Shown: positions 49,524 to 64,000, counted from the first letter of the stretch. The stretch: DNA of 64,000 nt from Corallococcus exiguus (GCF_012985275.1 NZ_JABEKY010000003.1); one strand, 5' to 3'. Program-made: numbers and translations. Notes: a model not told the origin generated them from the letters alone.

Positions 49524-49650
49524 GGCAGTGTCCTCTGGCAAGTGAACCGCTCCGGCATTCTCGCCGGTGGAACTCCGGGGGTCACGAGCAACGTGGGCTC
49601 AAGCGGACGGGGGCCTTCGTCCGCCCGGTGGGGGTGGTAGCGTCCCAGGC

Positions 49651-50556
49651 GTGTCCCCTGCGCCCACTCCTTTGGCCTCCGCCTTTCTCGCGGCTTCTGG
49701 CCACGCGCCTGCTTCGCTTGCGGAGCCCACGCGCTTGGAGGAGCTGCTCCGCGCGTCGCTCGAGCGCGCCCGGTCGCGCTGGCCCGGGCTGGAGCTGGAG
49801 GCGCTCGCCTTCGTGGTGTTCGTCGCTGAGCGATTGACGTCTCCGAAGGGGCTGCTGGAGGCGCTCGAAGGGGCCTCGCCTGCCTTCTCGGAGTTGTACC
49901 TGGCCTTCGGGTGCCTGCGGCACGACCGCGCCGCGCTCCAGTTCTTCGAGGACGGCTACCTCCGCGATGTCGGCGCGTTCGTGTCCGGCGTGGACCGCTC
50001 GCCCGCTTTCGTCGCGGAGGTGCGGCAGGTGCTCCGGGAGAAGCTGTTCACGGCTGCCGCTGGCTGTGAGCCGAAGATTTCGGAGTTCACCGGCGGCGGC
50101 GCGCTGGGCGGATGGGTGCGGGTGGCGGCGCTGCGCATCGCGCTCAACCTCAAGCGCTCCGAGACCCGGGCCGACACCGCCGCGCAGGACTCCGTTGAGT
50201 CCGCGTTCGGCGAGCAGCTGGGGCCAGAGCTCGAACACCTGCGCTCGCGGTACCGCGAGGCCTTCACGGAGGCCGTGCGCACGGCGCTGGGTGAGCTGTC
50301 CGACCGGGACCGCACGCTGATGCGCCTGTACCACGTGGAGTCGCTGTCGCTGGACGCCATCGCGGCGCTCTACCGCGTCCACATGTCCACGGTGTCGCGG
50401 TGGCTCAGCCGCGCGCGGGAGCAGGTGGCGGAGGCCACGACGCGGCGGCTCTGCGAACGCCTGGGGGTGGGCGCGTCCTCGGTGGACAGCATCGCGGCGC
50501 TGGTCGTGAGCCAGGTGGACCTCAGCCTGACGCGGCTGCTCGGTCCGGGGGGCTGA
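49651..50556 (+). CDS. ECF-type RNA polymerase sigma-70 family factor
   Basis: A sigma region 2-like segment (ELYLAFGCL...FFEDGYLRDV) and region 4 (DRTLMRLYHVESLSLDAIAALYRVHMSTVSRWLSRAREQV) are present. The start is uncertain: GTG 49651 was chosen, and the track ORF starts at 49567. Confidence 0.65.
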   Translation: MSPAPTPLASAFLAASGHAPASLAEPTRLEELLRASLERARSRWPGLELEALAFVVFVAERLTSPKGLLEALEGASPAFSELYLAFGCLRHDRAALQFFEDGYLRDVGAFVSGVDRSPAFVAEVRQVLREKLFTAAAGCEPKISEFTGGGALGGWVRVAALRIALNLKRSETRADTAAQDSVESAFGEQLGPELEHLRSRYREAFTEAVRTALGELSDRDRTLMRLYHVESLSLDAIAALYRVHMSTVSRWLSRAREQVAEATTRRLCERLGVGASSVDSIAALVVSQVDLSLTRLLGPGG

Positions 50557-50633
50557 ACTTTCGCTGCAAGGGATTTCCCGGCCGGTGTCAGGGCGTCGAA
50601 AGGCCCCTTCCGGGCCTCACCGAGGAAAGCCCC

Positions 50634-51596
50634 ATGCGCGTCTCTTCCTGGCTGTCCGTCGTCACCCTCGCCGCCACCGTCTCCGCCTGCGAGCCGTTCC
50701 CCGACGATGCCCCCTCCATCCCCACCGAGGTGCAGTGGCCCGGCGAGGCCTTCTTTCCAGAGGGCATCGCGGCCTCGAAGGACGGCACGCTCTACGCGGG
50801 CAGCCTGGGCACCGGCGCCATCGCGCGCGCCAAGCCGGGCTCGCTGGGGGCCGAGGTCTTCGTCCCGGGCCGGGCCTCATTCGGCGTCTACGGGCTCGAG
50901 GTGGATGAGGCCCACGACACGCTCTGGGCCTGCACCTACGACGACCTGCTGCTGCCCGCGCAGGCCTCGTACCTGAACGGGTATGCGCTCTCCTCGGGTG
51001 CCCTGAAGGCCAGCCATGCCATGCCCAGCCAGGTCAGCTTCTGCAACGACGTCGCCGTCGATGCCGCGGGCAACGTGTACGTGACGGACTCGTTCGGGAA
51101 CGCGGTCTTCCGGCTGGCCGTGGGTGGGACGGCGCTCGACACGTGGTCCTCGGATGCCGCGTACGAGCCCTCCGAGCCGGGCCTCATCACGCTCAACGGC
51201 ATCGCCTACGACGGGGCGAACCGGCTCTACGTCGTGAAGAGCGACACGGGCGCGCTGTTCTCCATCGATATCCAGCCGGATGGCAGCGCGGCGGCGCCCG
51301 TGAACATCCCGGTGACGCCGGCGCTGGAGACGCCGGACGGGGTCGAGTGGGTGGATTCGGGCCGGCTGTTCGTCGTGGAGAACACGGTGGGGCGGGCTTC
51401 GCTGGTGACGCTGGGTGAAGGCGCTGGCGCGAAGGAGGTGCTCGCCAACGGCTTCGTGGAGCCGACCGCCGCCGCGATCACGAAGGACGGCGCGTGGGTG
51501 CTGGAGTCGCAGATGGGGTTCTTCTTCGGCACGCCGGGGACCCCGGCCCTGCCCTTCCGCGCGTACCGGGTCGCCGTCCCCCCTCTTCTGCCCTGA
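50634..51596 (+). CDS. lipoprotein with an SMP-30/gluconolactonase/strictosidine-synthase-like beta-propeller
   Basis: The lipobox is MRVSSWLSVVTLAATVSAC. Repeated blades include DGTLYAGSLGTG, NVYVTDSFGNAVFRL, NRLYVVKSDTGALFSI and DGAWVLESQMG. The track ORF 50400-51596 starts further upstream in a Gly/Arg-rich stretch that looks non-coding. Confidence 0.6.
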   Translation: MRVSSWLSVVTLAATVSACEPFPDDAPSIPTEVQWPGEAFFPEGIAASKDGTLYAGSLGTGAIARAKPGSLGAEVFVPGRASFGVYGLEVDEAHDTLWACTYDDLLLPAQASYLNGYALSSGALKASHAMPSQVSFCNDVAVDAAGNVYVTDSFGNAVFRLAVGGTALDTWSSDAAYEPSEPGLITLNGIAYDGANRLYVVKSDTGALFSIDIQPDGSAAAPVNIPVTPALETPDGVEWVDSGRLFVVENTVGRASLVTLGEGAGAKEVLANGFVEPTAAAITKDGAWVLESQMGFFFGTPGTPALPFRAYRVAVPPLLP

Positions 51597-51626
51597 GCGC
51601 GAACAATCCTAGAGTCGCGTCCCACC

Positions 51627-54359
51627 ATGTCGGGATGTCCCTCCGAGGAAACGATTCTCGCCTTCGTGGAGGACCGCCTGCCGCATGAGCAGCGCGCCCT
51701 CGCGGAGGCGCACCTGTCCCGCTGCGATTCCTGCGGGTCGCTGCTCGCGGCCGTCGCGGCGACGTGGCACGCGGAGGGCCGGTTCGTGGAGGCGGCTCCG
51801 CCCCGCTCGTTCGCTCCTGGGGAGCGGGTGGGGCCGTACGTCATCGTCGCCCATGCGGGCAGTGGCGCGATGGGGGACGTGTACCGGGCTCGCGATGGGC
51901 GGCTGGGACGGGACGTGGCCTTGAAGGTGCTCCCGCTCCGGTTCGCGCAGGACGCGGAGCGCCTGGCCCGTTTCCGACAGGAGGCCCGCGCGGCGGGCGC
52001 GCTGTCCCATCCCCACCTGCTCACGCTGTTCGACGTGGGGACCCACGAGGACGTGCCGTACCTCGTCACCGAGTGGCTGGAGGGCGTCACCCTGCGGGCT
52101 CGGCTGATGCGTGGGCCGCTGCCACCGGAGCAGGCGCTGCGGCTGGGCATCCAGTTGTCCCAGGGGCTCGCGGCCGCGCACGCGCGTGGCGTCATCCACC
52201 GCGACCTCAAGCCCGCGAACATCTTCCTGTGCTCGAACGGCAGCGCGCGGGTCCTCGACTTCGGGCTGGCCCGGCTCACCGAGCGCGTCGAGCACACCGG
52301 GGACGCCTCGCTCACCCAGAGCGGCGCGGTGGTGGGCACCGCCGGGTACATGGCTCCGGAGCAGATCCGCGGCCAGGGCGTGGATGCTCGCGCGGATGTG
52401 TTCTCGCTCGGCGCGGTGCTCTACGAGGCCGTGAGCGGCCGTGCTCCCTTTGGCGGTGACAGCCCGGTGGAGCGGATGAGCGCCGCGCTCCGCGATGCGC
52501 CTCCCGTGCTGCCGGGAGAGATGGGGACGGTGATTGCTCGCTGTCTGGCGAAGGATCCAGGCGAACGGTTCCAGTCCGCGCAGGACCTGGCCTTCGCCCT
52601 GGAGTCCATCGCGGCTCGTGGTGCGCCCCTGGCCTTGCGGCGCGGAGTGTTCCCACGCCCTGCCCTGTGGGTGGCCGCGGCGGCCGTGCTGCTGTCTGTC
52701 GTGGGTGGCTTCCTGGCGTTCGGACACAGGCCGGCGACTGCGGCGGTGCCAACGGCGCAGTCCTCACGCCCGACGTACCGCCCCGTCACGTTCCGCCGGG
52801 GCCACGTGCTCAACGCCCGGTTCTCCGCGGACGGACACACGTTGCTCTATGGCGCGGCGTGGGAGGGAGGACCCGCGGAGCTCTACAGCGCGCGCACGGA
52901 GCGTCCGCTGTCACAACCGCTGGGGCAGCACGCGGATGTGCTCGCCGCGTCCTCGAAGGGGGAGCTGGCGGTGCTGCTCGAGCCCCGGTTCTTCGACGCC
53001 GAGCATGGCAGCGGGACGCTCGGCTTGATGCCGCTCGCGGGCGGCGCGCCCCGGGCCGTGCTCGATGGCGTGCTGGAGGCGGACTGGGGACGTGCGGATG
53101 GACCGCTCGCGGTGGTGCGCCGCGTGGGCGAGAACTTCCGGCTGGAGCAGCCCCCCGGCACGGTGCGCTTCGAATCCCAGGGATGGATCAGCCACGCACG
53201 CGTCTCCCCCGACGGAGCGCGGATCGCCTTCCTGTTCCATGCACATCCCAAGGACGACCGGGGCGGGGTCTGGGTGCTGGAGAAGGACGGTCCGCCCCGC
53301 GAGCTTTCGTCGGACTGGGCGAGCATCCGGGGCCTGGCGTGGTCTCCCGATGGAAGCGAGGTGTGGTTCACCGCCTCGCGTACAGGCGCGGACTCCGAGC
53401 TGTTCGCGGTCGACCTGCGCGGCACGACGCGGCCGGTGGATCGGATCGCCGGGCGGATGGTGCTGCATGACATCTCCCAGGACGGCTCCATCCTGGTGGA
53501 TCACCCGGTGATCCGCACGGGGCTGGCGTTCGGGCACGCGGGCACGGAGCGGGACCTGACGTGGTCGGACTCGTCGTTCATGACGGACATGTCCCGCGAT
53601 GGCCGGACCTTCCTCTTCACCGAGGGCGCGGAGGTGGAGGGCCCCACCTACGGCGCCTATCTGCGCACCTCCGATGGCGCACCACCGATCCGCCTGGGCG
53701 ACGGCATCCCCATGGCGCTGTCTCCGGACGGCAAGCAGGTGCTGCTGGTGCGCTACGGCGAACAGATGGAGTTCCTGCTGCTGCCCACGGGCGCGGGCGA
53801 GCCTCGGTCGCTGTCGCTCGCTCCTGTCACCACGGTGCTCACGGCGCGCTGGTTCCCGGATGGGAAGCGGTTGCTCCTTCGCGCGCACGAAGAGGGACGT
53901 CCTGCCCGGCTCTGGGTCTTCGAACCCGGCTCCGGAGCCCCCAGGCCCATCACAGAGGAAGGCACGGGCTTCCACACGGTCATCTCACCCGATGGCCTCC
54001 GCCTCGCGACCGTGGACGCGGAGGGAAGCCTCCGCCTGTTCTCCCAGACGGGTGAGGCGCAAGGCACCGTCCCCGGCCGGTTCACGAATCAATGGGTGGC
54101 GGGCTGGGACGCGAGCGGAACGGCGCTCTATCTGCGAAGCGTCTCGCTCCCGGTGCGCGTCTCCAGGGTCGACGTGAAGACTGGCGCGAGCACGCCACAC
54201 CTGACCCTTCCGGCGGGGGGCGTCATGCCGGGCCTCATCTCCGTGATGACGCTGGCGATCTCCGAGGACGGAAAGTTCTACACATACAGTTACAACGAAG
54301 CGCTTTCCCGGCTGTATCTGGTGAAAGGATTGGTGGGAGCCCGGTCTTCCCCGCAATAA
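51627..54359 (+). CDS. zf-HC2 anti-sigma-like N-terminus + Ser/Thr protein kinase + TM helix + periplasmic PD40/TolB-like beta-propeller
   Basis: The zinc-finger is CPSEETILAFVEDRLPHEQRALAEAHLSRCDSCGSL, the H-x3-C-x2-C type. The kinase motifs are GSGAMGDVY, ALKVL, HRDLKPANIFL, DFGLA and APE. The TM is ALWVAAAAVLLSVVGGFLAF. Seven or more PD40-like repeats are present (FSADGHTLLY, VSPDGARIAF, WSPDGSEVWF, MSRDGRTFLF, LSPDGKQVLL, WFPDGKRLLL, ISPDGLRLAT). Confidence 0.85.
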   Translation: MSGCPSEETILAFVEDRLPHEQRALAEAHLSRCDSCGSLLAAVAATWHAEGRFVEAAPPRSFAPGERVGPYVIVAHAGSGAMGDVYRARDGRLGRDVALKVLPLRFAQDAERLARFRQEARAAGALSHPHLLTLFDVGTHEDVPYLVTEWLEGVTLRARLMRGPLPPEQALRLGIQLSQGLAAAHARGVIHRDLKPANIFLCSNGSARVLDFGLARLTERVEHTGDASLTQSGAVVGTAGYMAPEQIRGQGVDARADVFSLGAVLYEAVSGRAPFGGDSPVERMSAALRDAPPVLPGEMGTVIARCLAKDPGERFQSAQDLAFALESIAARGAPLALRRGVFPRPALWVAAAAVLLSVVGGFLAFGHRPATAAVPTAQSSRPTYRPVTFRRGHVLNARFSADGHTLLYGAAWEGGPAELYSARTERPLSQPLGQHADVLAASSKGELAVLLEPRFFDAEHGSGTLGLMPLAGGAPRAVLDGVLEADWGRADGPLAVVRRVGENFRLEQPPGTVRFESQGWISHARVSPDGARIAFLFHAHPKDDRGGVWVLEKDGPPRELSSDWASIRGLAWSPDGSEVWFTASRTGADSELFAVDLRGTTRPVDRIAGRMVLHDISQDGSILVDHPVIRTGLAFGHAGTERDLTWSDSSFMTDMSRDGRTFLFTEGAEVEGPTYGAYLRTSDGAPPIRLGDGIPMALSPDGKQVLLVRYGEQMEFLLLPTGAGEPRSLSLAPVTTVLTARWFPDGKRLLLRAHEEGRPARLWVFEPGSGAPRPITEEGTGFHTVISPDGLRLATVDAEGSLRLFSQTGEAQGTVPGRFTNQWVAGWDASGTALYLRSVSLPVRVSRVDVKTGASTPHLTLPAGGVMPGLISVMTLAISEDGKFYTYSYNEALSRLYLVKGLVGARSSPQ

Positions 54360-55870: not shown

Positions 55871-58312
55871 TTGGCGGAATACCAACGCAGTGGAACCTGC
55901 CCTCCGGGCCCGTCCATGGCCGGATCCACCCGCCCTCCGTATGCTGGCCGGCTGGAGGCGCCCATGGATCCGTTGTGGGGGGAGACGCTGAGGCGTCTGG
56001 ATGCGCTGCTCGTCCAGGTGTGTGACCTGGAGGAGGCCCGCGCTTCGAAGCTCCGGGGGGAACAGGAGAATGGCTGGGATGCCGTGCGCACCACCGTGCG
56101 CCCTTCCACCGCCGAGCTCGCCTTCAGCTCGGCGCTCACGGAGACGCCGCTCCTGGGGACTTCGCCTCCCCTTCCCTTCGCGCGGCTGCGGGCTTCGCTT
56201 CGCGTGGACACCGTGGAGGAGGAGGCGCTGTTGCTCCTGCTCGCGACATGGCTGGAGCCCCGGTATTCGCGCCTGTTCGCCGTGCTCCAGGACGAGACCG
56301 CGCAGGGATGGAACGTGGAGCGGTTGCTGCTCACCGTCCTGGGCCGCACGCCTGCTCGCGCGCAGCGCTTGCTGGCGTCACTGACCGACAGCGGACTCCT
56401 GGTGGGCGGTGGACTGCTGCAGACGGGCGCCGGCGCTTTTCCTCCCATGCTCCGGCCCGTGGACCTGGCTCCGGAGGTCCGCGAGGCCCTGCTGGAACTG
56501 CCCCGGCCGTCCGTGATGGGCGAGCTCTCGCTGGAATGGCATGGACCGGAGGTGCCGCCTTCTTCGTCACTCGGGACGTTCGCTGTCGTGCATGGCGAGG
56601 GGGAGCGGCTGGGCGTGGCGATGCGCCTCGCTGACGAAGCCGGTGTGCCGCTGGTCGTCGCTCGGTGGGCGGGGGCTCCGGAGCCGGTTTCCATGGCCCG
56701 GGCCCTTTGGCGTCTGGCGTCCGTGCGCGGCGCGATGCTGGCCGTGGACATGTCCGGTGGTGAGCGGGGGCTGGCACTCTCCGTCACGGAGACGCTGTCT
56801 GGATTGTGCCAACGGTTTGGCGGGCGGGCCCTGGTGCTCGCGGACTCCGCGCAGCCCTTCGCCGTGCCGCACCATGAGGCACCCGCTCCAGGCTTCGTCC
56901 AGCGGCGGACCCTGTGGCTGGAGGAGGCCCAGGTTCGGGGACTGTCATTGACGGAGGCGGATGCGGGACGGCTGGCGTCTGGCTTTCGGGGCGGGCTTCA
57001 GGAGATCCGCCGCGTGTTCGACTCGGCTCCGGGCGGTGACGCGGATGCGCTTCGTGCCGCTGCCTCTCGGCTTGTCCAGGTGCCTTTGCGCCATGGCTAC
57101 CGGCTGGAGACGTCGCGGACCTTCGCGGACCTCGTGGTGCGTGACACCACTCGCGCGGCCTTGGAGCGACTGCTGTTCTACGTGGCCCAGCGCGACCGTG
57201 TCGCCGAAGAGCGTGGCCTGTCTCGTCGCTTCCGGATGCACACGGGCCCGGTGGCACTGTTCTCTGGACGCTCCGGCACTGGCAAGACCTTGGCCGCGGA
57301 GGTCATCGCCCATGCGGTGGGCCGGCCGATGTATGTCATCGACCTGTCCCGGCTCGTCAGCAAGTACGTGGGCGAGACGGAGAAGAACATCGACGAGGTG
57401 CTGTCCCACGGCGAGCGCTCCGGCGCCGTGCTGTTCTTCGACGAGGCGGACTCGCTGTTCTCCGCGCGCACGGAGGTCAGCAACGCCAATGACCGCTTCG
57501 CCAACCTGGAGGTCGGCTTCCTCCTCCAGCGCATCGAACGTCACGACGGGCTGATCATCCTCGCCACCAACCTGCAGACGGCCATCGATGAAGCCTTCCT
57601 GCGGCGCTTCCACGCGCGCATCGAGTTCCCCTTCCCCGAGGTCGACGAGCGCCGCCGCATCTGGGAGCTGATGCTTCCGGAGGGTGTGCCTCGCGCGGGG
57701 GCTCTCGACCTGGCGGGACTGGCGCAGCGGCACCGGCTGGCGGGCGGCGACATCCGCAACGCCGCGCTCAAGGCCATCTTCCTCGCCGAACAGGCGGGTG
57801 CTCCGCTGGCCCAGGAGCACCTGGAGCGCGCCGTCGCGCTGGAGTTGTATGAACTGGGCCGGCTCTCGCGGCGTCCGGAGGCGGAGGCTCCCTCGGACGC
57901 GGGCACACGCTTGCGCCGCGTGGCGGAAGTGTTCCAGGAGGCACTGGATTCGCAGCTCAGACAACACTTCCTCAAGGAGGTCCACATCCTCCACGGCTCC
58001 CCCACCCGGGAGGCGCTCGCGGGGAAGCGGCCGGCCGTGTCGCTCGCGCTCTACCGGCTGGCTGTCACCCAGAACGGTGCGCTGCGGCTTGGGCTCATCG
58101 TCTCCGCGTGGTCCCACCGCGCGGAGGAGGAACATGAGCTGCTTGGCGTGTTGCATGGGTTGCTCTCCCGTGGACTCCCGCACGAGCTGGATGGCCGCAA
58201 GCTCACACCTCGCGTCCAGGAGAGTTATGACTTTGACCTGCTCCATCGCTTCTGGAGCAGTCATGGACATCCCATCCGGGCCTCGCTGGTCCTCGATGTG
58301 GAGATGACCTAG
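55871..58312 (+). CDS. AAA+ ATPase (classical AAA clade) with an N-terminal region of about 500 aa of unknown function
   Basis: The C-terminal AAA module has Walker A GRSGTGKT, Walker B LFFDEADSLF, a second region of homology with arginine finger, ILATN and AFLRRF, and a lid domain. The start is TTG in the track; an alternative is ATG at 55964 (MDPLWGETL). Confidence 0.8.
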   Translation: MAEYQRSGTCPPGPSMAGSTRPPYAGRLEAPMDPLWGETLRRLDALLVQVCDLEEARASKLRGEQENGWDAVRTTVRPSTAELAFSSALTETPLLGTSPPLPFARLRASLRVDTVEEEALLLLLATWLEPRYSRLFAVLQDETAQGWNVERLLLTVLGRTPARAQRLLASLTDSGLLVGGGLLQTGAGAFPPMLRPVDLAPEVREALLELPRPSVMGELSLEWHGPEVPPSSSLGTFAVVHGEGERLGVAMRLADEAGVPLVVARWAGAPEPVSMARALWRLASVRGAMLAVDMSGGERGLALSVTETLSGLCQRFGGRALVLADSAQPFAVPHHEAPAPGFVQRRTLWLEEAQVRGLSLTEADAGRLASGFRGGLQEIRRVFDSAPGGDADALRAAASRLVQVPLRHGYRLETSRTFADLVVRDTTRAALERLLFYVAQRDRVAEERGLSRRFRMHTGPVALFSGRSGTGKTLAAEVIAHAVGRPMYVIDLSRLVSKYVGETEKNIDEVLSHGERSGAVLFFDEADSLFSARTEVSNANDRFANLEVGFLLQRIERHDGLIILATNLQTAIDEAFLRRFHARIEFPFPEVDERRRIWELMLPEGVPRAGALDLAGLAQRHRLAGGDIRNAALKAIFLAEQAGAPLAQEHLERAVALELYELGRLSRRPEAEAPSDAGTRLRRVAEVFQEALDSQLRQHFLKEVHILHGSPTREALAGKRPAVSLALYRLAVTQNGALRLGLIVSAWSHRAEEEHELLGVLHGLLSRGLPHELDGRKLTPRVQESYDFDLLHRFWSSHGHPIRASLVLDVEMT

Positions 58313-58384
58313 CGTCCCTCGCGCTGATGGTGCGGGGGGACCGTGCGCATCCGTGACCAGGGCCCGAAGGCCTCCGCCAAGGCC

Positions 58385-61300
58385 ATGCTCCGGAAGAACT
58401 CCGGGCGCACTCCCTCGTCCTCCGCGGCCCTTCCTCGTGCTCCGGGTGTCGTTCCCCGGGGCCCTTCCTCGTCCAATCCCGCGCGTGAGCTGGCGGCGCG
58501 GCTCGCGTCACTGAAGGGCGCGGCCCCTGCTCTCCACGGGCCTGTGCTCCGTGATGCCGCTCGCGACATGGAGCGCCGGTGGAGCGACCCAGCGTGGCGG
58601 ATGCTGGGCGGTCCGCGCTCGCATCTTTTCGAGCCTTGCCCGGTCCACCCGCCGGAGGTCGCGCTGCTCTCCACTCCCGGCGCCGTCGAGGCGGAGCTGG
58701 GCATCCATGGGCTCGCGCCACAGCCGAACACCGGGCTCGCGCAGGCGGCTGGCGCGTCCCAGCCCGCGACCCTCGCGCAGCAGGAGGAGGATGCTCGACG
58801 GCGTGATGCGGCGCGCATGGCCGTCCTGCCGATGGGCTCCGCTGAGCAGCTCGGAGACACCGCCGCGCGGCTCGCCGAGGCCCGTGCTTCAGACCTCGAA
58901 CCCTCTACGGTCACTGAGGAGTCGGAAGCAGCGGGACTCGGGGGCAGCACTTCTCCAGCGCCTGATGCCATTGCAGCAACCACCGTCGAAGCGCCCAGCG
59001 CGGGCGGCGACGTGGCAACGCCTGAGCAAGCTCCCGCGCCGGCATCCATCCCCACGGGGGCCGCTCCCGGCGGCATGGACGACGCCGCGCGCATCGACAC
59101 GCGGGTGTCCACGCTGTCGAGCCAGAGCGATGTCCACATCGTCGTCCGTCAGGCCTCCCCTGGCGCAGGGCCCCAGGAGCCTCCTCCCATCCAGACGGCT
59201 GCCACGGTCGACACAGGCCCCAGGGTGCCCGTGCCTCCGGCCGCGATGGAGTGGCAGAAGGAGTTGGCCGCGGCCCATGCGCAGGGCGTCCAAGGCATCA
59301 AGCACGGTCTCGAAACCGCTCCGGATCCGACGGGTGCCATCACGGCGGTGGAGCCCCCTGCCAGCCTTCCCGCGCCGCCTCCTGCTCCGGCAGCACCTGT
59401 CACGGCGGGGCCCATCCCCGCTGCGCCAGCGGTAGGCGCGGACGCGGATCCGGTCGCCGCATGGAAGGGCCGCATCGCCAGCAGCACGGCGCAGGTCCCG
59501 GAGCCACAGCTTCCTCCGGCGCCCCGCTACACGTTCAAGATCACCCAGGCCGCCGTGGACCCCAACGCGGTCCGTGCCGCGCGCCTCAAGCAACTGGAGG
59601 ACGAAGGCAAGAAGGCCATCACCCCGGCGAAGCAGCCGAAGGACCTTCCGGCCATCCCGGACGATCCCACCGGCAAGGCCTCCTCGCTGGTGGATGCGAA
59701 GTGCGAACGGAAGCTGGACGTCAAGGACGCCAAACTCCCCGACCTGCAGAAGAGCCCGCTGGGCCACGTGCCGGAGATTGGCGCGCAGCTCATGCGCGAC
59801 GACGGCGGGCACATGCTCATCAAGGGCCCGCTCGGCGACCTCGTCTACAAGCCCGGCGGTCCCAAGCCCACCGACCCGGAGAAGCTCAAGGACTGGACGC
59901 GCCTCCAGAAGAAGATCACCGCCGAGGCCGACAAGCAGAAGAAGGCGAAGGTCCAGCCCAAGGAACCCGCGAAGGGCATCACCGTCCTCGAACAGGCCGC
60001 CCCCGCGCCCATCAACGTCCCGGACTTCGCCCGCGTGGACATTGGCGACGTGCTGGCTCGGCTGCTCGCCGCTCCGGATAAGTACGCCGACGCCTCCGTC
60101 CAGAAGGCCCGCGAAGCCTATGTCCCGGGCGGCCTGGATGCGTCCTGGGGCGTTGCTCTCATCACCGCTGAGCGTCCCATCTTCGCCGCGGAGCTCCAGC
60201 GCGTCGCGGACGCCGCACAGATCAAGAAGGAGGACCTGGACGCGAAGGTGGAAGCCCGCCGCAAGCAACTGGTGGACTCGCACGTCGCAACCACCGGCAC
60301 GCTCAGCAAGGCGCACGAGGACGCGAAGAAGAGCCTGGAGGAGGGCGGCAAGTCGTTCGCTGATTCCCTGTCGCGCATGCGCGCCTCGCTCGACGCGCAG
60401 TCCGAGGCGAAGGCCGCCGCCATCAAGGGCGGCGTCGACCTGACCGAGGCCCGGCGCAAACGCGACGCGCTCATCGCGGCCGTCGACACCAAGGTGAGCA
60501 ACTGGGTCGTCCGGTACGACCAGAACGGCAAGCGCCTCAAGGAAGCCTTCGCGAAGGCCGCGAGCGACCAGATGCACGCCTACGAGCTCGCCGCCCTCCA
60601 GGACGAGTGGGAGCTCAAGAAGGACGCCGGCGATGATCCGGTGAAGCTCAAGGCCGCCACGGAGGCGTACCGCCCCACCAAGAAGTGGATGGACGACCGC
60701 CGCAAGGAGATTGGCGCCGTCGTCACGAAGGCGAAGCGCGACATCGACCAGAGCGTGGATCGCTATCAGCAGGAGCTGCGCGACGCGGGCAGGGAGGCCC
60801 GGGACGTCATCCGCGACTGGCACGCGAAGCAGATCGGCTACGAGCGCGGCTTCTGGGACCGGCTGCTCGGGTGGATCATCGACTGGCTGGAGGCCGCCCA
60901 CGACGAGAGCCGCGCGTGGGAGACCGCTCGCGCGGCGGAGAACAAGACGTCGCTGGATCAGAACATGCTGTTCCTCGCGGAGGTGCGCCTGCGCCAGGGC
61001 GAGGAGCTGGACGCGGAGACCATCAAGGGGAACAACGCCCTCAGCGAGGAGCAGAAGGCCATCCTGCTCTCCTACTACGGCAAGGGGGGCAAGGACGCGG
61101 TGCAGGCGCTCGCGGAGGGCCTGGCCGTGCGCATCATCGGCCAGCGCCGCAAGCCGCTCATGGAGTCCCTGGAGAAGGAGCTGCTCGCGTCCACGGACCT
61201 GGAGCGGCTGAAGACCGTCGTCGACCAGCAGGAGCCCCTCTTCAGCAACCGCGCGCGCAACATCTCCCTCAAGGTCTGGGAGGGCGTGGACCAGTGGGGC

Positions 61301-64000
61301 ACGGACGAGAAGAAGATCTTCGACGCGCTCGCCAACCTCAACCCGCTCCAGGGTCACTACATCGAGGTCCTCTACCAGCAAGAGCACAACGAGAACCTGC
61401 GCGAGCGGCTCAAGAGCGAGCTGGACGACTTCTTCAGCACCACCACGCACGACTGGGACAAGGCGGAGGCGCTGCTCTCCGGCAACGCATCCAAGGCCGC
61501 CGCCGTCGAGCTGAACGACGCCATGGAGGGCACCTTCTTCGGCTTGGGCTGGGGCACGGACGAGGCCGCCATCCTCACCCTGCTTCGCGGCAAGACGCCG
61601 GAGCAGATTGAAGCCATCAAGAAGGCCTACCAGCAGAAGTACGGCAAGGACCTGGTCGTCCAGATGGACGACGAGCTGCGCAGCGGCGCGCTCAAGACAC
61701 ACGACGTGGACGAGATGCACGCCCTGGTGGAGGGCCGCACCGAGGACGCTCGCGCCATCGAGATGGACCGCGCCATGCGCGGCGGGTGGTTCTTCGGTCT
61801 GGGCACCGACCGCAAGGCCATGGAGGACGTCTACGACCGCATCCGCAAGGAGACGGAGGCCGACGCGCAGCAGTACGGCTGGGACACCAAGACGTTCCGC
61901 GCGGAGCTGCTCAAGCGCAACCAGGCCATCGACGCGTCGTATGAGCAGCAATACGGCACGGATTGGACCCAGCGCACCGCGGGCGAGAGCGCGCTCAGCG
62001 CCGCGTTCCACGACGAGATGAAGGGCGAGGACCTCAAGCTCATTGAGGGCCTTCGCGACGACAAGGGACTCCAGGTGGATGCCGCGCGCATCCGCATCGA
62101 GCACACCAGCGTCTTCTACGCGGACGACAAGGTCATCCGCGACGCCATGTCCGCGCAGGGCAAGCGGCAGATCGCCGACGCGCGCCGCGACGGCTACCTG
62201 GACATCCAGGAGCGGATGGACATCGAGCGCACGCTGGACGAGGCGAAGGTCAAGCCCGCCAGCGAGGGCCCGCTCACCGAGGAGGACCGCCGCAAGGGCC
62301 GCATCAGTGAATTGGAGTTCCTGGACAAGTGGAGCCCGGAGAAGGTCCAGGCCCGCATCGCGAAGGAACACAAGGAGGTGGACGTCAAGGCGAAGGCCCA
62401 GGCCCAGGCCGACGCCATGGCGAACATGAAGGCGCTGGCGGCCGAGTACGACAGCGCCTACGTGGAGGGCACGCACCTTCAGGCGAGCTTCGAGCAGGCC
62501 GTCCTGATGGACACGTCCGGCGCGGACCGGGACGCCGTCGCGGCGATGCTGAAGAAGGGCTACCTCACCGACGCGGAAGTCGTTCAGTACGCCGTGCAGG
62601 GCGTGGGCACGGACGAGGACGCGCTCAAGGAGGTCTTCGCCGGGAAGACGAAGGCGGAGATCCAGGCCATGGCCGAGGAGTGGGCCAAGGACCACCCCGC
62701 CGACCCTGGCGACACGCGCACGCCCTTCGAGCGCTTCCGCGCGCGCATCGACGAGGAGCTGAGCGGACGCGAGGCCTTCGACATCCTCGACATGGTGGAC
62801 TACGGCGAGCCCGTCACGCCCCGCGAGAAGGCGGACCGCGCCTGGCGCCGGGTGCACTTCGAGGCGAGCTCCACCAACAGCATGGCGTCCTCGGAGTACC
62901 AGCTGGTGCTGGACCAGGCGTCCGCGCTCGACGCCGAGGTGAGCGCGCTGGAGCTGCACGAGCGGATGCGCCCCAAGCCCGGGGACAAGAACTACACCGC
63001 CGACGGGCTGCGCAAGTGGCAGGAGGACTGGGAGAAGAAGTCCGAGCGCGTGCAGCGCCAGGGTGATTACGCCGACGAGTCGGTGCAGATGCACCGCGAG
63101 CAGGTGGACTTCATCACCGACCGGCTGGTGATGGTCCTCACCGCGGTGGTGATGGCGGTGGTGGTCATCATCGGCGTCATCGTCAGCATCTTCGCTCCGC
63201 CCGTGGGCGCGGGGTTCTGGGCCGCGTTCGGCGCATTCATGGCCAGCACGCCGGTGCTGGTGGGCACGGCGGTGGCGACGGCCGCCGTGACGATGCTGAC
63301 CAAGGCCGCCATGAAGGGCAGCGCCTACGGCTGGGAGGAGGCCGCCACCGACGCGGGCGTGGGTGCCGTGGACGCGCTCACTGCCGCGGCCACCGCCGGC
63401 ATGGGCACGAAGCTGCTCAAGCTGGGGTTCCTGGCGCGCATGGCGGAGGAAGGCGGGATGCTGGCGCGGGTCACTGCGCACGGCCTGGCCCAGGGCGCCG
63501 AAGGCCTGGTCCAGTCCGTGCCCTCCGCGTTCCTGGGCAACGTCCTCAACGACCAGAACTACAAGGGCGGCAACGCGCTCTTCAACGTGCTGGCGGGCAC
63601 CGCGATGCAGGCGGCGCCGGGCGCGGTGATGGCCGGGGCCTTTGGCGCGCTGGGCGGCATCTCCAAGCCTCACGTGCCGCCGCGCACCCAGGACCTGCTC
63701 CACTTCCGGGGCACGCCGAAGGAGCGGCTGACCCTCTTCAAGAAGTGGAAGGCGGAGAACCCCGCCGGGAACATGAAGGAGTTCCTGCGCGAGTTCGACG
63801 ACGGCCTGCTCAAGCAGATGTCGGGCGACTTCGACCGGCAGCAGCTCCAACGCGCCATGCGCAAGGAGCTGCTGGAGCACATCCCGCCCGCGCAGCGAAA
63901 GGCGTTCGCGAACACGCCCATCGAGCTGATCTCCGAGGCGGACTTCGAGGCGCTCACCGACAGCAAGTCCGCCCAGGCCGTCGCGATGTTCCGGCGGGGC
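58385..64000 (+). CDS. giant protein (more than 1870 aa, 3'-truncated by the window end) with a Pro/Ala-rich N-terminus, coiled coils, at least four annexin-type repeats, a cluster of C-terminal TM helices and a further C-terminal domain
   Basis: It is not in the ORF track because it has no in-window stop. Frame 2 is open from the stop at 58325-58327 to position 64000; by my manual translation ATG 58385 and GTG 58343 are candidate starts. Annexin-repeat matches are GLGWGTDEAAILTLLRGKTPEQIEAIKKAYQQKYGKDLVVQMDDELRSGALK, WFFGLGTDRKAMEDVYDRI...YGWDTKTFRAELLKR, VWEGVDQWGTDEKKIFDALANL...LRERLKSELDDFF, and QGVGTDEDALKEVFAGKTKAEIQAMAEEW...IDEELSGREAFDILDM. The TM block is LVMVLTAVVMAVVVIIGVIVSIFAPPVGAGFWAAFGAFMASTPVLVGTAVATAAV. 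The opposite-strand 1663-aa ORF is R/L/H-rich and looks antisense. Confidence 0.6.
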   Translation, partial: MLRKNSGRTPSSSAALPRAPGVVPRGPSSSNPARELAARLASLKGAAPALHGPVLRDAARDMERRWSDPAWRMLGGPRSHLFEPCPVHPPEVALLSTPGAVEAELGIHGLAPQPNTGLAQAAGASQPATLAQQEEDARRRDAARMAVLPMGSAEQLGDTAARLAEARASDLEPSTVTEESEAAGLGGSTSPAPDAIAATTVEAPSAGGDVATPEQAPAPASIPTGAAPGGMDDAARIDTRVSTLSSQSDVHIVVRQASPGAGPQEPPPIQTAATVDTGPRVPVPPAAMEWQKELAAAHAQGVQGIKHGLETAPDPTGAITAVEPPASLPAPPPAPAAPVTAGPIPAAPAVGADADPVAAWKGRIASSTAQVPEPQLPPAPRYTFKITQAAVDPNAVRAARLKQLEDEGKKAITPAKQPKDLPAIPDDPTGKASSLVDAKCERKLDVKDAKLPDLQKSPLGHVPEIGAQLMRDDGGHMLIKGPLGDLVYKPGGPKPTDPEKLKDWTRLQKKITAEADKQKKAKVQPKEPAKGITVLEQAAPAPINVPDFARVDIGDVLARLLAAPDKYADASVQKAREAYVPGGLDASWGVALITAERPIFAAELQRVADAAQIKKEDLDAKVEARRKQLVDSHVATTGTLSKAHEDAKKSLEEGGKSFADSLSRMRASLDAQSEAKAAAIKGGVDLTEARRKRDALIAAVDTKVSNWVVRYDQNGKRLKEAFAKAASDQMHAYELAALQDEWELKKDAGDDPVKLKAATEAYRPTKKWMDDRRKEIGAVVTKAKRDIDQSVDRYQQELRDAGREARDVIRDWHAKQIGYERGFWDRLLGWIIDWLEAAHDESRAWETARAAENKTSLDQNMLFLAEVRLRQGEELDAETIKGNNALSEEQKAILLSYYGKGGKDAVQALAEGLAVRIIGQRRKPLMESLEKELLASTDLERLKTVVDQQEPLFSNRARNISLKVWEGVDQWGTDEKKIFDALANLNPLQGHYIEVLYQQEHNENLRERLKSELDDFFSTTTHDWDKAEALLSGNASKAAAVELNDAMEGTFFGLGWGTDEAAILTLLRGKTPEQIEAIKKAYQQKYGKDLVVQMDDELRSGALKTHDVDEMHALVEGRTEDARAIEMDRAMRGGWFFGLGTDRKAMEDVYDRIRKETEADAQQYGWDTKTFRAELLKRNQAIDASYEQQYGTDWTQRTAGESALSAAFHDEMKGEDLKLIEGLRDDKGLQVDAARIRIEHTSVFYADDKVIRDAMSAQGKRQIADARRDGYLDIQERMDIERTLDEAKVKPASEGPLTEEDRRKGRISELEFLDKWSPEKVQARIAKEHKEVDVKAKAQAQADAMANMKALAAEYDSAYVEGTHLQASFEQAVLMDTSGADRDAVAAMLKKGYLTDAEVVQYAVQGVGTDEDALKEVFAGKTKAEIQAMAEEWAKDHPADPGDTRTPFERFRARIDEELSGREAFDILDMVDYGEPVTPREKADRAWRRVHFEASSTNSMASSEYQLVLDQASALDAEVSALELHERMRPKPGDKNYTADGLRKWQEDWEKKSERVQRQGDYADESVQMHREQVDFITDRLVMVLTAVVMAVVVIIGVIVSIFAPPVGAGFWAAFGAFMASTPVLVGTAVATAAVTMLTKAAMKGSAYGWEEAATDAGVGAVDALTAAATAGMGTKLLKLGFLARMAEEGGMLARVTAHGLAQGAEGLVQSVPSAFLGNVLNDQNYKGGNALFNVLAGTAMQAAPGAVMAGAFGALGGISKPHVPPRTQDLLHFRGTPKERLTLFKKWKAENPAGNMKEFLREFDDGLLKQMSGDFDRQQLQRAMRKELLEHIPPAQRKAFANTPIELISEADFEALTDSKSAQAVAMFRRG

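What the first reader, a model, noticed from the sequence alone, without database searches (positions are those of the whole stretch)
55871..64000. AAA+ ATPase followed by a giant (more than 1870 aa, open-ended) annexin-repeat protein with a C-terminal transmembrane block; invisible in the ORF track
Downstream of the AAA+ gene, frame 2 has no stop from 58328 to the window end, so the ORF finder omitted it. Its translation has a K/E/D-rich, plausible composition. It contains at least four segments matching the annexin repeat consensus (GxGTDE...L..R...Q...I...Y...YG..L...I..ExSG), followed by four closely packed hydrophobic helices and a further soluble domain that continues beyond the window. 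Annexins are rare in bacteria. A multi-kilobase bacterial protein combining annexin repeats with an integral-membrane module, directly preceded by an N-terminally extended classical AAA ATPase, is an architecture I do not recognise. Speculatively, the ATPase could be an unfoldase or disassembly partner for a membrane-binding or membrane-remodelling scaffold, or the large protein could be a delivered toxin-like molecule whose C-terminal domain lies beyond the window. The N-terminal 300 aa are Pro/Ala/Ser-rich without a signal peptide.
Basis: seen in the sequence. Interest (0 to 1): 0.85.

Follow-up and report, generated by a model that had tools for sequence, protein, structure and literature searches.

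The report
Detached injection-system loader and giant cargo
The two genes are a contractile-injection-system (phage-tail-like syringe) cargo module sitting away from the syringe genes: a loading ATPase fused to the tube-capping domain, followed by a giant annexin-repeat, membrane-inserting cargo protein. It is a new variant of a known kind of system.

Summary
Frame 2 is open from 58328 to the window end, has coding composition (GC3 0.91), and passes the Pfam Annexin threshold (74 bits; cut-off 25). It has four annexin repeats followed by a hydrophobic block. The source is Corallococcus, and orthologues are 2,593–2,730 aa.

The architecture is not unknown. Distant homologues of the giant protein lie inside contractile injection system (CIS) loci, in the order cap, ATPase, giant, sheath, tube. 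Corallococcus annexin giants were catalogued in 2014, and annexin was linked to CIS toxins in 2021.

The ATPase has the Pvc15/Cis15 layout: winged helix, apparently degenerate D1, active D2. Its last ~130 aa are a tail-terminator (Pvc16_N) domain. This is supported by hhalign (97.5%), an AF2 model (pLDDT 87), and top Foldseek hits to CIS caps and lambda gpU.

This ATPase–cap fusion is a cross-phylum family. In 7 of 8 lineages sampled it has no sheath or tube gene within 10 kb. In one lineage it sits beside a full CIS cluster.

Best reading: a detached cargo-loading module in which the ATPase docks on a tube end and threads the giant protein in. I found no paper describing the fusion or the detached module, so I class it as a new variant of a known kind.

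The parts
55964..58312 (+). Gene for a 782-aa Pvc15/Cis15-type AAA+ ATPase fused to a tail-terminator (cap) domain
   Evidence: Pfam finds WHD PF22977 (34.3 bits, cut-off 27) and AAA PF00004 (87.8 bits). The D2 domain is 41% identical over 284 aa to the ATPase of a Streptomyces CIS locus, E 7e-57. Orthologues are annotated at 782 aa. dN/dS is 0.04-0.18.
56168..56479 (+). Winged-helix N-domain of the ATPase
   Evidence: Pfam PF22977 matches residues 100-203 of the TTG-start translation. The same domain is found in the ATPases of CIS loci L003, L004 and L006.
57257..57631 (+). Active AAA+ module (D2): Walker A GRSGTGKT, Walker B FFDEAD, pore-loop KYVG
   Evidence: Pfam AAA matches residues 463-587. 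The motif residues are invariant across 11 cross-phylum homologues. The nearest solved relatives are the D2 domains of p97/Cdc48, E 3e-39.
57929..58300 (+). C-terminal tail-terminator domain (Pvc16_N / lambda gpU fold) fused to the ATPase
   Evidence: hhalign of 91 fusion C-termini against 35 CIS cap proteins gives probability 97.5%, E 6.5e-12, 123 columns. The AF2 model has pLDDT 87 and pTM 0.80. Top Foldseek hits in the PDB are the S. coelicolor CIS cap 9gts (E 4.8e-5), the PVC caps 9qgn and 6j0f, lambda gpU, and the AlgoCIS and Anabaena caps. The window protein's own Pfam PF14065 score is only 19.7 bits, below the cut-off of 27.
58343..64000 (+). Giant cargo/effector gene. It is open at the window end: 1,886 of about 2,670 codons are in the window.
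   Evidence: The frame is open with GC3 0.91. It is 96% identical to a 2,670-aa C. exiguus protein. The core (aa 665-1770) is homologous to a CIS-embedded Streptomyces protein, E 3e-83.
58343..59602 (+). Pro/Ala/Ser-rich, probably disordered N-terminal region (aa 1-420). Candidate loading signal. No DUF4157 domain.
   Evidence: Composition is 36-46% P/A/S. There is no Pfam hit at E<=0.1. dN/dS is 0.23-0.28. The N-termini of homologues in other phyla are also low-complexity. The function is inferred from the Ericson 2026 preprint.
59603..61270 (+). Charged (K/E/D/R 31-41%) helical region (aa 421-976). From about aa 665 it is conserved with CIS-embedded homologues.
   Evidence: Composition. The alignment to P0022 starts at aa 665. 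Coiled-coil character was not formally predicted.
61271..61495 (+). Annexin repeat 1 (QWGTDE)
   Evidence: Own repeat HMM, i-E 3.8e-23.
61532..61744 (+). Annexin repeat 2 (GWGTDE ... DDELRSG)
   Evidence: Own repeat HMM, i-E 1.1e-21. This is the best Pfam Annexin stretch.
61775..61969 (+). Annexin repeat 3 (GLGTDR), with an insertion
   Evidence: Own repeat HMM, i-E 6.4e-19.
62582..62812 (+). Annexin repeat 4 (GVGTDE ... EELSGRE), about 200 aa after repeat 3
   Evidence: Own repeat HMM, i-E 1.1e-22. GTDE here is invariant in all 7 distant homologues.
63104..63310 (+). Hydrophobic block: two to three predicted membrane-spanning segments
   Evidence: The Kyte-Doolittle 19-aa window peaks at 3.23. 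The position is conserved in the CIS-embedded homologues.
63311..63712 (+). Gly/Ala-rich conserved region after the TM block (AYGxEE, AATAGMG, NDxxWKGGN motifs)
   Evidence: It is conserved across all 7 distant homologues.
63713..64000 (+). Start of a post-TM domain shared only with the detached-type giants of Mycolicibacterium, Micromonospora and a Kofleriaceae MAG. It continues beyond the window.
   Evidence: BLASTP of L001 aa 1798-2036 against L007 (E 1e-16); L007 against L008 (E 3e-12); and P0001 against L011 (E 2e-11). Identity unresolved.

Best explanation
The two genes form a cargo-loading module of a contractile injection system (CIS) that has become separated from the sheath, tube and baseplate genes.

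**Gene 1** is a loading ATPase of the Pvc15/Afp15/Cis15 type. It has a winged-helix N-domain, an apparently degenerate first AAA module, and an active, p97-like, substrate-threading second module. Its C-terminus carries the tube-terminator domain that is normally a separate cap protein (the N-domain of Pvc16/Cis16, lambda gpU fold).

**Gene 2** is the cargo, a protein of about 2,670 aa. It belongs to the family of giant proteins encoded between the ATPase and sheath genes in Streptomyces-type CIS loci. Its parts, in order, are:
- a disordered N-terminus;
- a charged helical region;
- four annexin repeats;
- a membrane-spanning block;
- a fast-evolving C-terminal 'warhead' that ends in an HExxH zincin-like domain.

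**Inferred mechanism**
1. The ATPase hexamer sits coaxially on the distal end of a CIS tube through its terminator ring.
2. It recognises the disordered N-terminus of the giant protein, unfolds it, and threads it into the tube lumen.
3. After contraction the cargo is expelled.
4. Its annexin repeats (Ca2+/phospholipid binding) and hydrophobic helices engage a membrane.
5. The C-terminal domain then acts.

The tube and sheath would come from a CIS locus elsewhere in the genome.

**Shown versus inferred.** Shown: the homologies, the fusion, and the gene contexts. Inferred: docking, threading, use of a distant CIS, and what happens at the membrane.
For: **The giant protein belongs to a CIS-embedded family**
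- Distant homologues lie inside CIS loci in the order Pvc16_N cap, WHD-AAA ATPase, giant, sheath, tube, then VgrG, PAAR and gp25. This is seen in L003 (Streptomyces), L004 and L006.
- Core homology to the CIS-embedded Streptomyces protein P0022 has E 3e-83.

**The ATPase is a CIS loader type**
- It is 41-47% identical in D2 to those CIS ATPases.
- Of the 77 non-fusion relatives fetched, 54 have a sheath gene within 10 kb.
- The pore-loop KYVG and Walker motifs are invariant, and the nearest solved relatives are the p97/Cdc48 D2 unfoldase domains.

**The terminator domain is real**
- hhalign gives 97.5% probability.
- The AF2 model has pLDDT 87, and its top Foldseek hits are CIS caps and lambda gpU.
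- The domain is among the most conserved parts of the protein across phyla, with dN/dS 0.04-0.07.

**A fusion ATPase can belong to a real CIS**
- In a Rhodospirillaceae MAG (L090) it sits divergently next to a sheath, two tube genes, CIS_tube and gp25. No separate cap was detected in the 10 kb held.
- A Kofleriaceae locus has a gp5/VgrG-type spike gene 6 kb upstream.
- Two fusion loci have a DUF4157 (eCIS core) protein directly downstream (L012, L009), and one has it upstream (L091).

**A CIS exists elsewhere in at least two carrier genomes**
- Geller 2021 lists an eCIS in C. coralloides DSM 2259 at 3.52-3.56 Mb.
- It also lists one in Micromonospora pattaloongensis, on another scaffold or at least 40 kb away.

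**Literature on the mechanism**
- Pvc15/Alg15 ATPases are required for loading cargo into the tube lumen, a disordered N-terminus is the loading signal, and DUF4157 is dispensable.
- Tme co-purifies with spike and tube-initiator proteins.

**The module is conserved, so it is not a relic**
- AAA, giant, p254 and a HEAT/FGE-like protein recur in Corallococcus, Mycolicibacterium, a Gemmatimonadaceae MAG and an unnamed metagenome contig.
- Both window genes are under purifying selection.
Against: - There are no sheath, tube, baseplate or spike genes anywhere in the 64-kb window, nor within 10 kb downstream in C. coralloides.
- In 7 of 8 lineages sampled, the fusion ATPase has no sheath or tube gene within 10 kb. 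The comparison with non-fusion relatives is 1/8 against 54/77, Fisher p = 0.002. The detached state is therefore the rule and could mean autonomy from a CIS.
- C. coralloides B035 carries the pair but is flagged eCIS-negative in Geller's table, which was based on the assembly available then.
- The giant protein lacks the N-terminal DUF4157 domain that defines Tme-like effectors.
- No similarity to phage tape-measure proteins was detected at HMMER level.
- Canonical loading ATPases are not part of the finished particle, so a permanently cap-fused ATPase departs from the known mechanism.
- Whether a 2,670-aa protein fits a Corallococcus tube was not computed.
Confidence: 0.55

Rival explanations
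1. The module is an autonomous machine derived from a CIS. It no longer uses a sheath or tube. The ATPase, with its terminator domain now serving as an oligomerisation or docking ring, unfolds the giant protein and inserts or extracts it at the producer's own membrane. The other conserved genes (p254, the HEAT/FGE-like protein, and elsewhere p160 and p815) would be its partners.
For: - In 7 of 8 lineages the fusion ATPase has no sheath or tube gene within 10 kb, against 54 of 77 for non-fusion relatives.
- The detached loci share accessory genes of their own that have no CIS Pfam domains. These are p254 and the HEAT/FGE-like protein, and p160 and p815.
- C. coralloides B035 has the pair but is flagged eCIS-negative.
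- Streptomyces CIS act inside the producer cell, according to PMC13277306 and PMC11126660.
Against: - A tail-terminator fold has no known role other than capping a tube, and it is very strongly conserved here.
- L090 shows the same fusion beside a complete CIS cluster.
- L011 keeps a spike gene.
- At least two carrier genomes do have a CIS elsewhere.
Confidence: 0.25
2. The giant protein is a polymorphic toxin exported by another route, such as type VI secretion, outer-membrane exchange or lysis. The ATPase would be only a dedicated chaperone or unfoldase, and the CIS ancestry would be merely historical.
For: - Relatives carry classic polymorphic-toxin ends: Ntox4 in P0024, and PT-HINT plus Hint_2 in P0020.
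- The C-terminal ~630-695 aa are only 48-79% identical among Corallococcus orthologues, whereas these proteins are 73-96% identical over the window-encoded part.
- A LysM/VgrG3-C-like gene is present elsewhere in the window.
Against: - The protein has no signal peptide or recognised T6SS adaptor domain (no PAAR, Rhs or MIX) in Pfam.
- The partner ATPase carries a tube-terminator domain specific to phage-tail-like machines.
- No obvious immunity gene was identified. p175 and p254 have no informative Pfam hits.
Confidence: 0.1
3. This is the first reader's other idea: a membrane-binding or membrane-remodelling annexin scaffold, resident in the cell, with the AAA+ protein acting as its disassembly factor, by analogy with ESCRT-III/Vps4. 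It would be unrelated to injection systems.
For: - There are four annexin repeats, three of them with intact GxGT...E motifs, next to a TM block.
- The AAA domain has weak similarity to CdvC/Vps4-type models (E 1.6e-16, far below the family cut-off).
Against: - All informative homology of both genes points to CIS loci.
- The CdvC/Vps4 score is 60 bits against a cut-off of 650, which reflects generic AAA similarity only.
- The variable C-terminal end and the toxin-bearing relatives do not fit a housekeeping scaffold.
Confidence: 0.05
4. The pair is a decaying remnant of a lost CIS cluster and has no present function.
For: It lies detached from structural genes, and an IS element is present 8 kb upstream. 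In Minicystis (L009) the region after the ATPase looks fragmented and holds a transposase.
Against: - Intact reading frames of 2,593-2,730 aa are kept in many Corallococcus species.
- dN/dS is 0.04-0.33 in most segments.
- The fusion family is conserved at about 50% identity across phyla, and its C-terminal domain is nearly invariant in places.
Confidence: 0.03

Closest known systems
Giant DUF4157-type CIS effectors: eCIS-associated toxins with long linkers (Geller et al. 2021, PMC8213781) and Tme of Streptomyces davawensis (Nagakubo et al. 2024, PMC11126660)
   Same: - It is a very large protein and the largest ORF of its locus.
- It has a largely disordered or charged helical body, a block of predicted TM helices, and a variable C-terminal enzymatic end.
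- It sits next to the Cis15-type ATPase.
- Direct homology (E 3e-83) to CIS-embedded members that carry DUF4157 plus annexin (P0022) or DUF4157 plus Ntox4 (P0024) was shown here.
   Different: - It has no N-terminal DUF4157 domain.
- It is not inside a CIS cluster.
- The annexin repeats are not mentioned in the two Streptomyces papers.
- Direct homology to Tme (BN159_7576) itself was not tested, because I did not have its sequence.
- The C-terminal end is a zincin-like HExxH domain rather than an EndA-type nuclease.
Pvc15 / Afp15 / Alg15 / Cis15 loading ATPases of extracellular CIS
   Same: - It has the same layout of winged-helix N-domain, degenerate D1 and active D2, as described for Pvc15 in PMC11495950.
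- It is in the same Pfam families as the ATPases of CIS loci.
- It has a classical-clade pore loop.
- Its nearest non-fusion relatives are encoded in CIS loci.
   Different: - It carries a fused tail-terminator domain at the C-terminus.
- It is usually encoded away from sheath and tube genes.
- Canonical Alg15 is not part of the finished particle, whereas a cap fusion suggests stable docking.
Pvc16 / Afp16 / Cis16 cap proteins and phage tail terminators (lambda gpU)
   Same: The fold is the same and there is profile-level sequence homology over the tube-binding N-domain, including the signature motif (I/L)VSAW(S/T)xRxE(D/E)EHxLL.
   Different: Only a compact N-domain of about 125 aa is present, with a loop deleted and no C-terminal sheath-contacting part. 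It is not a free-standing protein but the tail of an ATPase.
Bacterial annexins (Kodavali et al. 2014, PMC3894181)
   Same: The C. coralloides DSM 2259 annexin proteins are in that catalogue, one with three annexin domains and one with five. The catalogue also notes TM regions and combinations with DUF4157 and toxin domains.
   Different: That study found no clue in gene neighbourhoods and made no link to injection systems or to the adjacent ATPase.
Auxiliary (orphan) effector islands of type VI secretion systems (my own knowledge, not tested here)
   Same: The logic is the same: cargo and its dedicated loading adaptor are encoded far from the structural cluster of a contractile machine.
   Different: T6SS islands carry VgrG/PAAR and adaptor or chaperone genes, not an ATPase-cap fusion. 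No homology is implied.

Membership tests
Annexin (Pfam PF00191) | Sequence matches the annexin repeat model above the curated threshold | tested here: met
   74.1 bits against a cut-off of 25, E 9.5e-21. A profile of the core region also finds vertebrate annexin A6 at E 8e-60.
Annexin (Pfam PF00191) | Four repeats forming one compact core | tested here: inconclusive
   Four repeats were found. Repeat 4 lies about 200 aa after repeat 3, and repeat 3 has an insertion. No structure model of this region was made.
Annexin (Pfam PF00191) | Type II Ca2+-site motif GxGT followed about 38 residues later by an acidic residue | tested here: met
   Read directly from the sequence. Repeats 2-4 have GWGT...DDELRSG, GLGT...HDEMKGE and GVGT...DEELSGR. 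Repeat 1 has QWGT. This is sequence evidence only.
Annexin (Pfam PF00191) | Ca2+-dependent binding to acidic phospholipids | not testable with these tools
   Needs liposome-binding assays.
Pvc15/Afp15/Cis15 CIS loading ATPase | Winged-helix N-domain plus AAA module(s) of the classical clade | tested here: met
   PF22977 at 34.3 bits and PF00004 at 87.8 bits. Walker A, Walker B and the pore loop are invariant. p97 D2 is the nearest solved relative. D1 degeneracy is inferred from the secondary alignments and from the alignment.
Pvc15/Afp15/Cis15 CIS loading ATPase | Encoded in a CIS gene cluster next to the cap gene | tested here: not met
   No sheath, tube or baseplate genes are found in the 64-kb window. 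The cap is fused rather than adjacent. The feature is met for the homologues in L003, L004 and L006 and for the fusion-type homologue in L090.
Pvc15/Afp15/Cis15 CIS loading ATPase | Required for loading cargo into the tube lumen | not testable with these tools
   Needs deletion and Walker B mutants plus particle proteomics.
Pvc16_N / tail terminator (PF14065; gpU fold) | Pfam model above the curated threshold | tested here: not met
   19.7 bits against a cut-off of 27 for the window protein. Several family members do carry a precomputed PF14065 hit.
Pvc16_N / tail terminator (PF14065; gpU fold) | Profile-profile homology to cap proteins of CIS loci | tested here: met
   hhalign gives 97.5%, E 6.5e-12, 123 aligned columns. 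The L004 cap matches the C-terminus of the L008 ATPase by BLASTP at E 6e-7.
Pvc16_N / tail terminator (PF14065; gpU fold) | Tail-terminator fold | tested here: met
   AF2 pLDDT 87. The top Foldseek hits are 9gts, 9qgn, 6j0f, 3fz2 (gpU), 7adz and 7b5i, all with probability 1.00.
Pvc16_N / tail terminator (PF14065; gpU fold) | Forms a hexameric ring on the last tube ring | not testable with these tools
   Needs multimer modelling with the cognate tube protein, or cryo-EM.
Tme-like CIS effectors (as defined in PMC11126660) | Largest ORF of the locus, with predicted TM helices and long disordered or coiled regions | tested here: met
   About 2,670 aa in orthologues. Coiled coils were not formally predicted.
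Tme-like CIS effectors (as defined in PMC11126660) | DUF4157 (eCIS_core) domain at the N-terminus | tested here: not met
   No PF13699 hit at E<=0.1 in the window protein or in P0001. DUF4157-like motifs seen by eye after the TM block and at the C-terminus were not significant by hhalign (P 0.02-0.03).
Tme-like CIS effectors (as defined in PMC11126660) | Conserved synteny inside a CIS gene cluster | tested here: not met
   Not met in Corallococcus. Met for the distant homologues P0022, P0023 and P0024.
Tme-like CIS effectors (as defined in PMC11126660) | Remote homology to phage tape-measure proteins | tested here: inconclusive
   No PHROGs family matched at E<=0.01. The original claim rested on HHpred, which I could not run against phage profiles.
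Tme-like CIS effectors (as defined in PMC11126660) | Physical association with CIS spike or tube-initiator proteins | not testable with these tools
   Needs pull-downs or particle proteomics.

The most novel reading that the evidence does not exclude
The ATPase-terminator fusion is a natural 'Rosetta stone'. It would show that CIS loading ATPases work at the cap end of the tube, coaxially with it, and thread cargo in from there. The cross-phylum family of such fusions counts at least 90 sequence clusters. These usually travel with a giant annexin/TM protein and their own accessory genes, and usually lie far from any sheath gene. The family would then define either a distinct CIS subtype with trans-encoded cargo modules or a tube-independent machine for delivering giant membrane-inserting proteins.
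Probability: 0.3. Interest if true: 0.75.

Novelty: new variant of a known kind. Interest (0 to 1): 0.55.

Why it matters
How cargo gets into the tube of contractile injection systems is an open question. A 2026 preprint still calls loading 'poorly understood'. The question matters for engineering these particles as protein-delivery tools.

A conserved natural fusion of the loading ATPase to the tube-terminator domain gives a concrete, testable geometry: the ATPase ring stacked on the distal tube end.

The finding also shows that cargo-plus-loader modules can live far from the structural genes. Surveys that search only around sheath genes would therefore miss such effectors. The giant annexin/TM proteins of soil predators such as Corallococcus are an example.

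Finally, it supplies a functional context for bacterial annexins. Their gene neighbourhoods were reported in 2014 to give no general clue to function.

Tried and rejected
**Searches that failed or were limited**
- Exact-sequence look-ups of the window ATPase, with two alternative starts, found nothing. This strain is not in the collection, so the orthologous C. coralloides locus L001 was used for downstream context.
- The third protein search, with a core profile, was limited by the word pre-filter. It added only annexin paralogues and eukaryotic annexins. S. davawensis Tme was not retrieved, so direct homology to Tme remains untested.

**Ideas tested and not supported**
- DUF4157-like motifs seen by eye (EEGLHLLQ after the TM block, HESRHYYQ at the C-terminus) were compared with profiles of 3 and then 67 DUF4157 domains. 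They were not significant (P 0.02-0.23) and are kept only as a lead.
- No PHROGs tape-measure hit was found.
- p175 is not related to the p160 family, and the giant N-terminus is not a fused p160.
- The NCBIfam 'IteA anti-phage ATPase' hit is 91 bits against a cut-off of 510. It reflects generic AAA similarity and is not a membership.
- The minus-strand 1,663-aa ORF is an artefact of high GC content. It has no Pfam hit and a GC3 of 0.70, against 0.91 for the plus frame.

Full report
**1. The observation**

The plus frame starting at 58328 has no stop codon up to the window end. Its codon-position GC content (0.70/0.46/0.91) is typical of genes in this 70% GC genome. The 1,663-codon ORF on the opposite strand has 0.92/0.44/0.70 and no Pfam hit.

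Pfam Annexin is matched at 74.1 bits (cut-off 25; E 9.5e-21). An HMM built from the repeats of five distant family members finds four repeats at aa 977-1051, 1064-1134, 1145-1209 and 1414-1490. Repeats 2-4 keep the GxGT...acidic signature of type II calcium sites, read directly from the sequence.

A strongly hydrophobic block lies at aa 1588-1656 and is followed by a Gly/Ala-rich region. I count two to three clear membrane segments rather than four. The first ~400 residues are 36-46% Pro/Ala/Ser.

The nearest relatives are Corallococcus proteins of 2,593-2,730 aa. The closest is 96% identical, from C. exiguus. They begin MRIRDQGPK, which places the start at GTG 58343, 31 nt after the ATPase stop.

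The ATPase is annotated as 782 aa in orthologues, which corresponds to ATG 55964. dN/dS against C. coralloides and C. carmarthensis is 0.14-0.33 in most segments of the giant gene, including the low-complexity N-terminus. It reaches 0.44-0.73 in two short segments. In the ATPase it is 0.04-0.18.

**2. What the giant protein is related to**

Beyond Corallococcus, the search found a handful of proteins of 2,400-2,800 aa at 25-28% identity. Their gene contexts are informative.
- In a Streptomyces genome (L003), the gene order is Pvc16_N cap, WHD-AAA ATPase, giant protein, sheath, tube, further tube-type proteins, VgrG-like spike, PAAR, gp25.
- A JGI metagenome contig (L004) shows the first five of these in the same order before the contig ends. 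An ENA contig (L006) holds sheath and tube on the opposite strand, then cap, ATPase, a small DUF4157 protein and the giant.

All of these are contractile injection system (CIS) loci.

These CIS-embedded relatives have an N-terminal DUF4157 (eCIS_core) domain, or a small DUF4157 protein just upstream. They have annexin repeats and, in one case, an Ntox4 toxin end. Another relative ends in PT-HINT/Hint.

The alignment between the C. exiguus orthologue and the Streptomyces protein runs from aa 665 to 1770 (E 3e-83). It covers the charged helical region, all four annexin repeats, the TM block and the Gly/Ala-rich region. The N- and C-terminal parts differ.

The last ~630-695 residues, beyond the window, are only 48-79% identical among Corallococcus orthologues. 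The same proteins are 73-96% identical over the window-encoded part. This is the pattern of a variable 'warhead'.

**3. What the ATPase is**

Pfam finds a winged-helix domain (PF22977) and one AAA module. These are the same two families as in the ATPases of the three CIS loci.

The active module is 41-47% identical to those ATPases. Walker A, Walker B and the KYVG pore loop are invariant across phyla. Its nearest solved relatives are the D2 domains of the p97/Cdc48 unfoldases.

Secondary alignments suggest a degenerate first AAA module between the winged helix and D2. That is the layout described for Pvc15 (PMC11495950).

The new feature is a C-terminal extension of about 130 aa. Pfam gives only a sub-threshold hit to Pvc16_N (19.7 bits). 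Three independent tests agree that the extension is a tail-terminator domain:
- A cap protein from a CIS locus aligns to the extension of a Mycolicibacterium homologue (E 6e-7).
- A profile of 91 such extensions matches a profile of 35 CIS cap proteins at 97.5% probability (E 6.5e-12).
- A confident AF2 model (pLDDT 87, pTM 0.80) has the following as its best Foldseek hits in the PDB: the cap of the S. coelicolor CIS, two Photorhabdus PVC caps, lambda tail terminator gpU, the AlgoCIS and Anabaena CIS caps, and the pyocin and diffocin collars.

The protein is therefore a loading ATPase fused to the tube-terminator domain.

**4. Distribution and context of the fusion**

Ninety-one sequences among the listed homologues of the ATPase (the window protein included) carry the C-terminal signature. 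They come from Myxococcota (Corallococcus, Kofleriaceae, Minicystis), Actinomycetota (Micromonospora, Mycolicibacterium, Cellulomonas, Acidimicrobiales) and a Rhodospirillaceae MAG.

I obtained gene context for eight lineages:
- Corallococcus, Micromonospora, Mycolicibacterium, Minicystis, a Kofleriaceae MAG, Cellulomonas and one unnamed assembly have no sheath, tube or separate cap gene within 10 kb.
- By contrast, 54 of 77 loci holding the nearest non-fusion relatives have a sheath gene within 10 kb. Fisher p = 0.002.
- The eighth lineage, a Rhodospirillaceae MAG (L090), has the fusion ATPase divergently adjacent to a sheath, two tube genes, CIS_tube and gp25. No separate cap was detected in the stretch held.

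The detached loci are not random either:
- A giant homologue accompanies the ATPase in Mycolicibacterium (2,286 aa, annexin-positive), Kofleriaceae (3,191 aa) and Micromonospora (1,699 aa).
- DUF4157 proteins lie directly downstream in Cellulomonas and Minicystis, and upstream in L091.
- Kofleriaceae keeps a gp5/VgrG-type spike gene.

Two further genes recur after the giant gene: a ~254-aa protein and a ~505-aa HEAT/FGE-sulfatase-like protein. They are seen in Corallococcus, a Gemmatimonadaceae MAG and an unnamed contig, and the HEAT/FGE-like one also in Mycolicibacterium.

Outside Corallococcus, two other families (p160 and p815) travel with the fusion. The 64-kb window itself contains no CIS structural gene.

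**5. Is there a CIS elsewhere in these genomes?**

I could not scan whole genomes. Geller et al. (PMC8213781) list an extracellular CIS in C. coralloides DSM 2259 at 3,522,183-3,558,527. They list another in Micromonospora pattaloongensis DSM 45245 on scaffold Ga0131183_107. From locus-tag numbering I estimate that COCOR_03294 lies roughly half a megabase from the DSM 2259 CIS. This is an inference, not a measurement.

C. coralloides B035 carries the pair (QAT84726 and QAT84725) but is flagged CIS-negative in the same table. Co-occurrence is therefore likely but not established.

**6. Mechanism**

Published work shows the following:
- Pvc15 and Alg15 are required to load cargo into the tube lumen.
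- A disordered N-terminal region is the loading signal.
- DUF4157 is dispensable for loading.
- The ATPase is not found in finished AlgoCIS particles.
- Tme, a 2,247-aa DUF4157/TM effector of S. davawensis, co-purifies with spike and tube-initiator proteins and acts through its C-terminal nuclease.

On this basis I infer the following sequence of events. The ATPase hexamer docks by its terminator ring on the distal end of a tube. It engages the disordered N-terminus of the giant protein and threads it into the lumen. After contraction, the annexin repeats and hydrophobic helices take the cargo to a membrane, where the C-terminal domain acts.

The homologies, the fusion and the gene contexts are shown. 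Docking, threading, the use of a distant CIS and the events at the membrane are inferred.

The main rival is that the detached module has become independent of sheath and tube. The 7-of-8 detached contexts and the module's private accessory genes speak for that rival. The strong conservation of a fold whose only known role is capping tubes, and the L090 locus, speak against it.

**7. Comparison with what is known, and novelty**

Giant bacterial annexin proteins with TM regions and DUF4157 or toxin domains were catalogued in 2014, including two from C. coralloides DSM 2259. That study found no general clue in gene neighbourhoods.

Annexin was listed in 2021 as enriched in CIS toxins, and DUF4157 toxins with linkers of more than 1,000 aa were noted. 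Tme and Sle1/Sle2 were characterised in 2024-2026.

What I did not find in the searchable literature is:
- the ATPase-terminator fusion;
- its habitual separation from CIS structural genes;
- its conserved pairing with DUF4157-less annexin giants plus the p254 and HEAT/FGE-like genes.

The window protein fails two of the three criteria that define Tme-like effectors (N-terminal DUF4157, and synteny inside a CIS cluster). I therefore describe it as a relative that probably works like them, not as a member. I class the finding as a new variant of a known kind, with moderate interest (0.55).

Noticed in passing
window 15233-17563 (-): A 777-aa bacterial homologue of the eukaryotic Major Vault Protein. 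It has several Vault repeat domains and the MVP shoulder domain (E 9e-45).
   Followed up: no
window 9695-11440 (-): A protein with a LysM domain and a T6SS VgrG3-like C-terminal domain (E 3e-53), probably a peptidoglycan-binding or peptidoglycan-degrading protein. The two neighbouring ORFs have no Pfam hit.
   Followed up: no
window 46246-47993: An Acyl_transf_3 ORF of only 195 aa abuts a DDE_Tnp_1 transposase gene on the other strand. The acyltransferase gene is probably disrupted by an insertion sequence.
   Followed up: no
window 23405-26917 (-): A valyl-tRNA synthetase carrying a C-terminal tail of about 110 aa that is Lys/Ala/Pro-rich and histone-H1-like (HC2, E 2e-10).
   Followed up: no
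window 49546-54356 (+): A Myxococcales family-1 ECF sigma factor (TIGR03001, 234 bits), followed by a beta-propeller protein, and then a 910-aa protein with zf-HC2 (anti-sigma-like), Ser/Thr kinase and WD40/PD40 parts. This regulatory trio lies about 1.6 kb upstream of the ATPase, beyond two genes on the opposite strand. Any link to the ATPase/giant pair was not examined.
   Followed up: no
L001 18140-20966 (orthologous C. coralloides locus, just beyond the window end): Three genes follow the giant gene. p175 has a CxxC...CxxC zinc-ribbon-like N-terminus and is found only in Corallococcus. p254 and a 505-aa HEAT/FGE-sulfatase-like protein recur after giant homologues in other phyla. They are candidate chaperone or immunity partners of unknown function. 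A lanthipeptide cluster (LanC, Lant_dehydr) lies further downstream.
   Followed up: partly
L090 1-12379 (Rhodospirillaceae MAG JACKIG010000013): A complete-looking CIS cluster (sheath, two tube genes, CIS_tube, gp25) whose only detectable cap domain within the 10 kb held is the one fused to the ATPase. This is a possible natural example of an ATPase-capped CIS.
   Followed up: partly
L007 18252-22374, L011 5481-9708, L091 12443-22359; also L008, L009, L012: Two uncharacterised protein families, p160 (~160-280 aa) and p815 (~750-820 aa), travel with the fusion ATPase outside Corallococcus. They have no Pfam domains and are absent from the window.
   Followed up: partly
P0025, P0163-P0165 (other Corallococcus loci): A second, shorter family of annexin-repeat proteins (about 1,200-1,270 aa) exists in Corallococcus genomes. 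Its context was not examined.
   Followed up: no
window 63713-64000 and beyond (P0001 aa 1791-2040): A domain after the TM block is shared only by the detached-type giants (Corallococcus, Mycolicibacterium, Micromonospora, Kofleriaceae). It has a conserved [EQ]E(G/A)xHLxQ motif that resembles a DUF4157 HExxH site with the first histidine lost. Profile comparison was not significant.
   Followed up: partly
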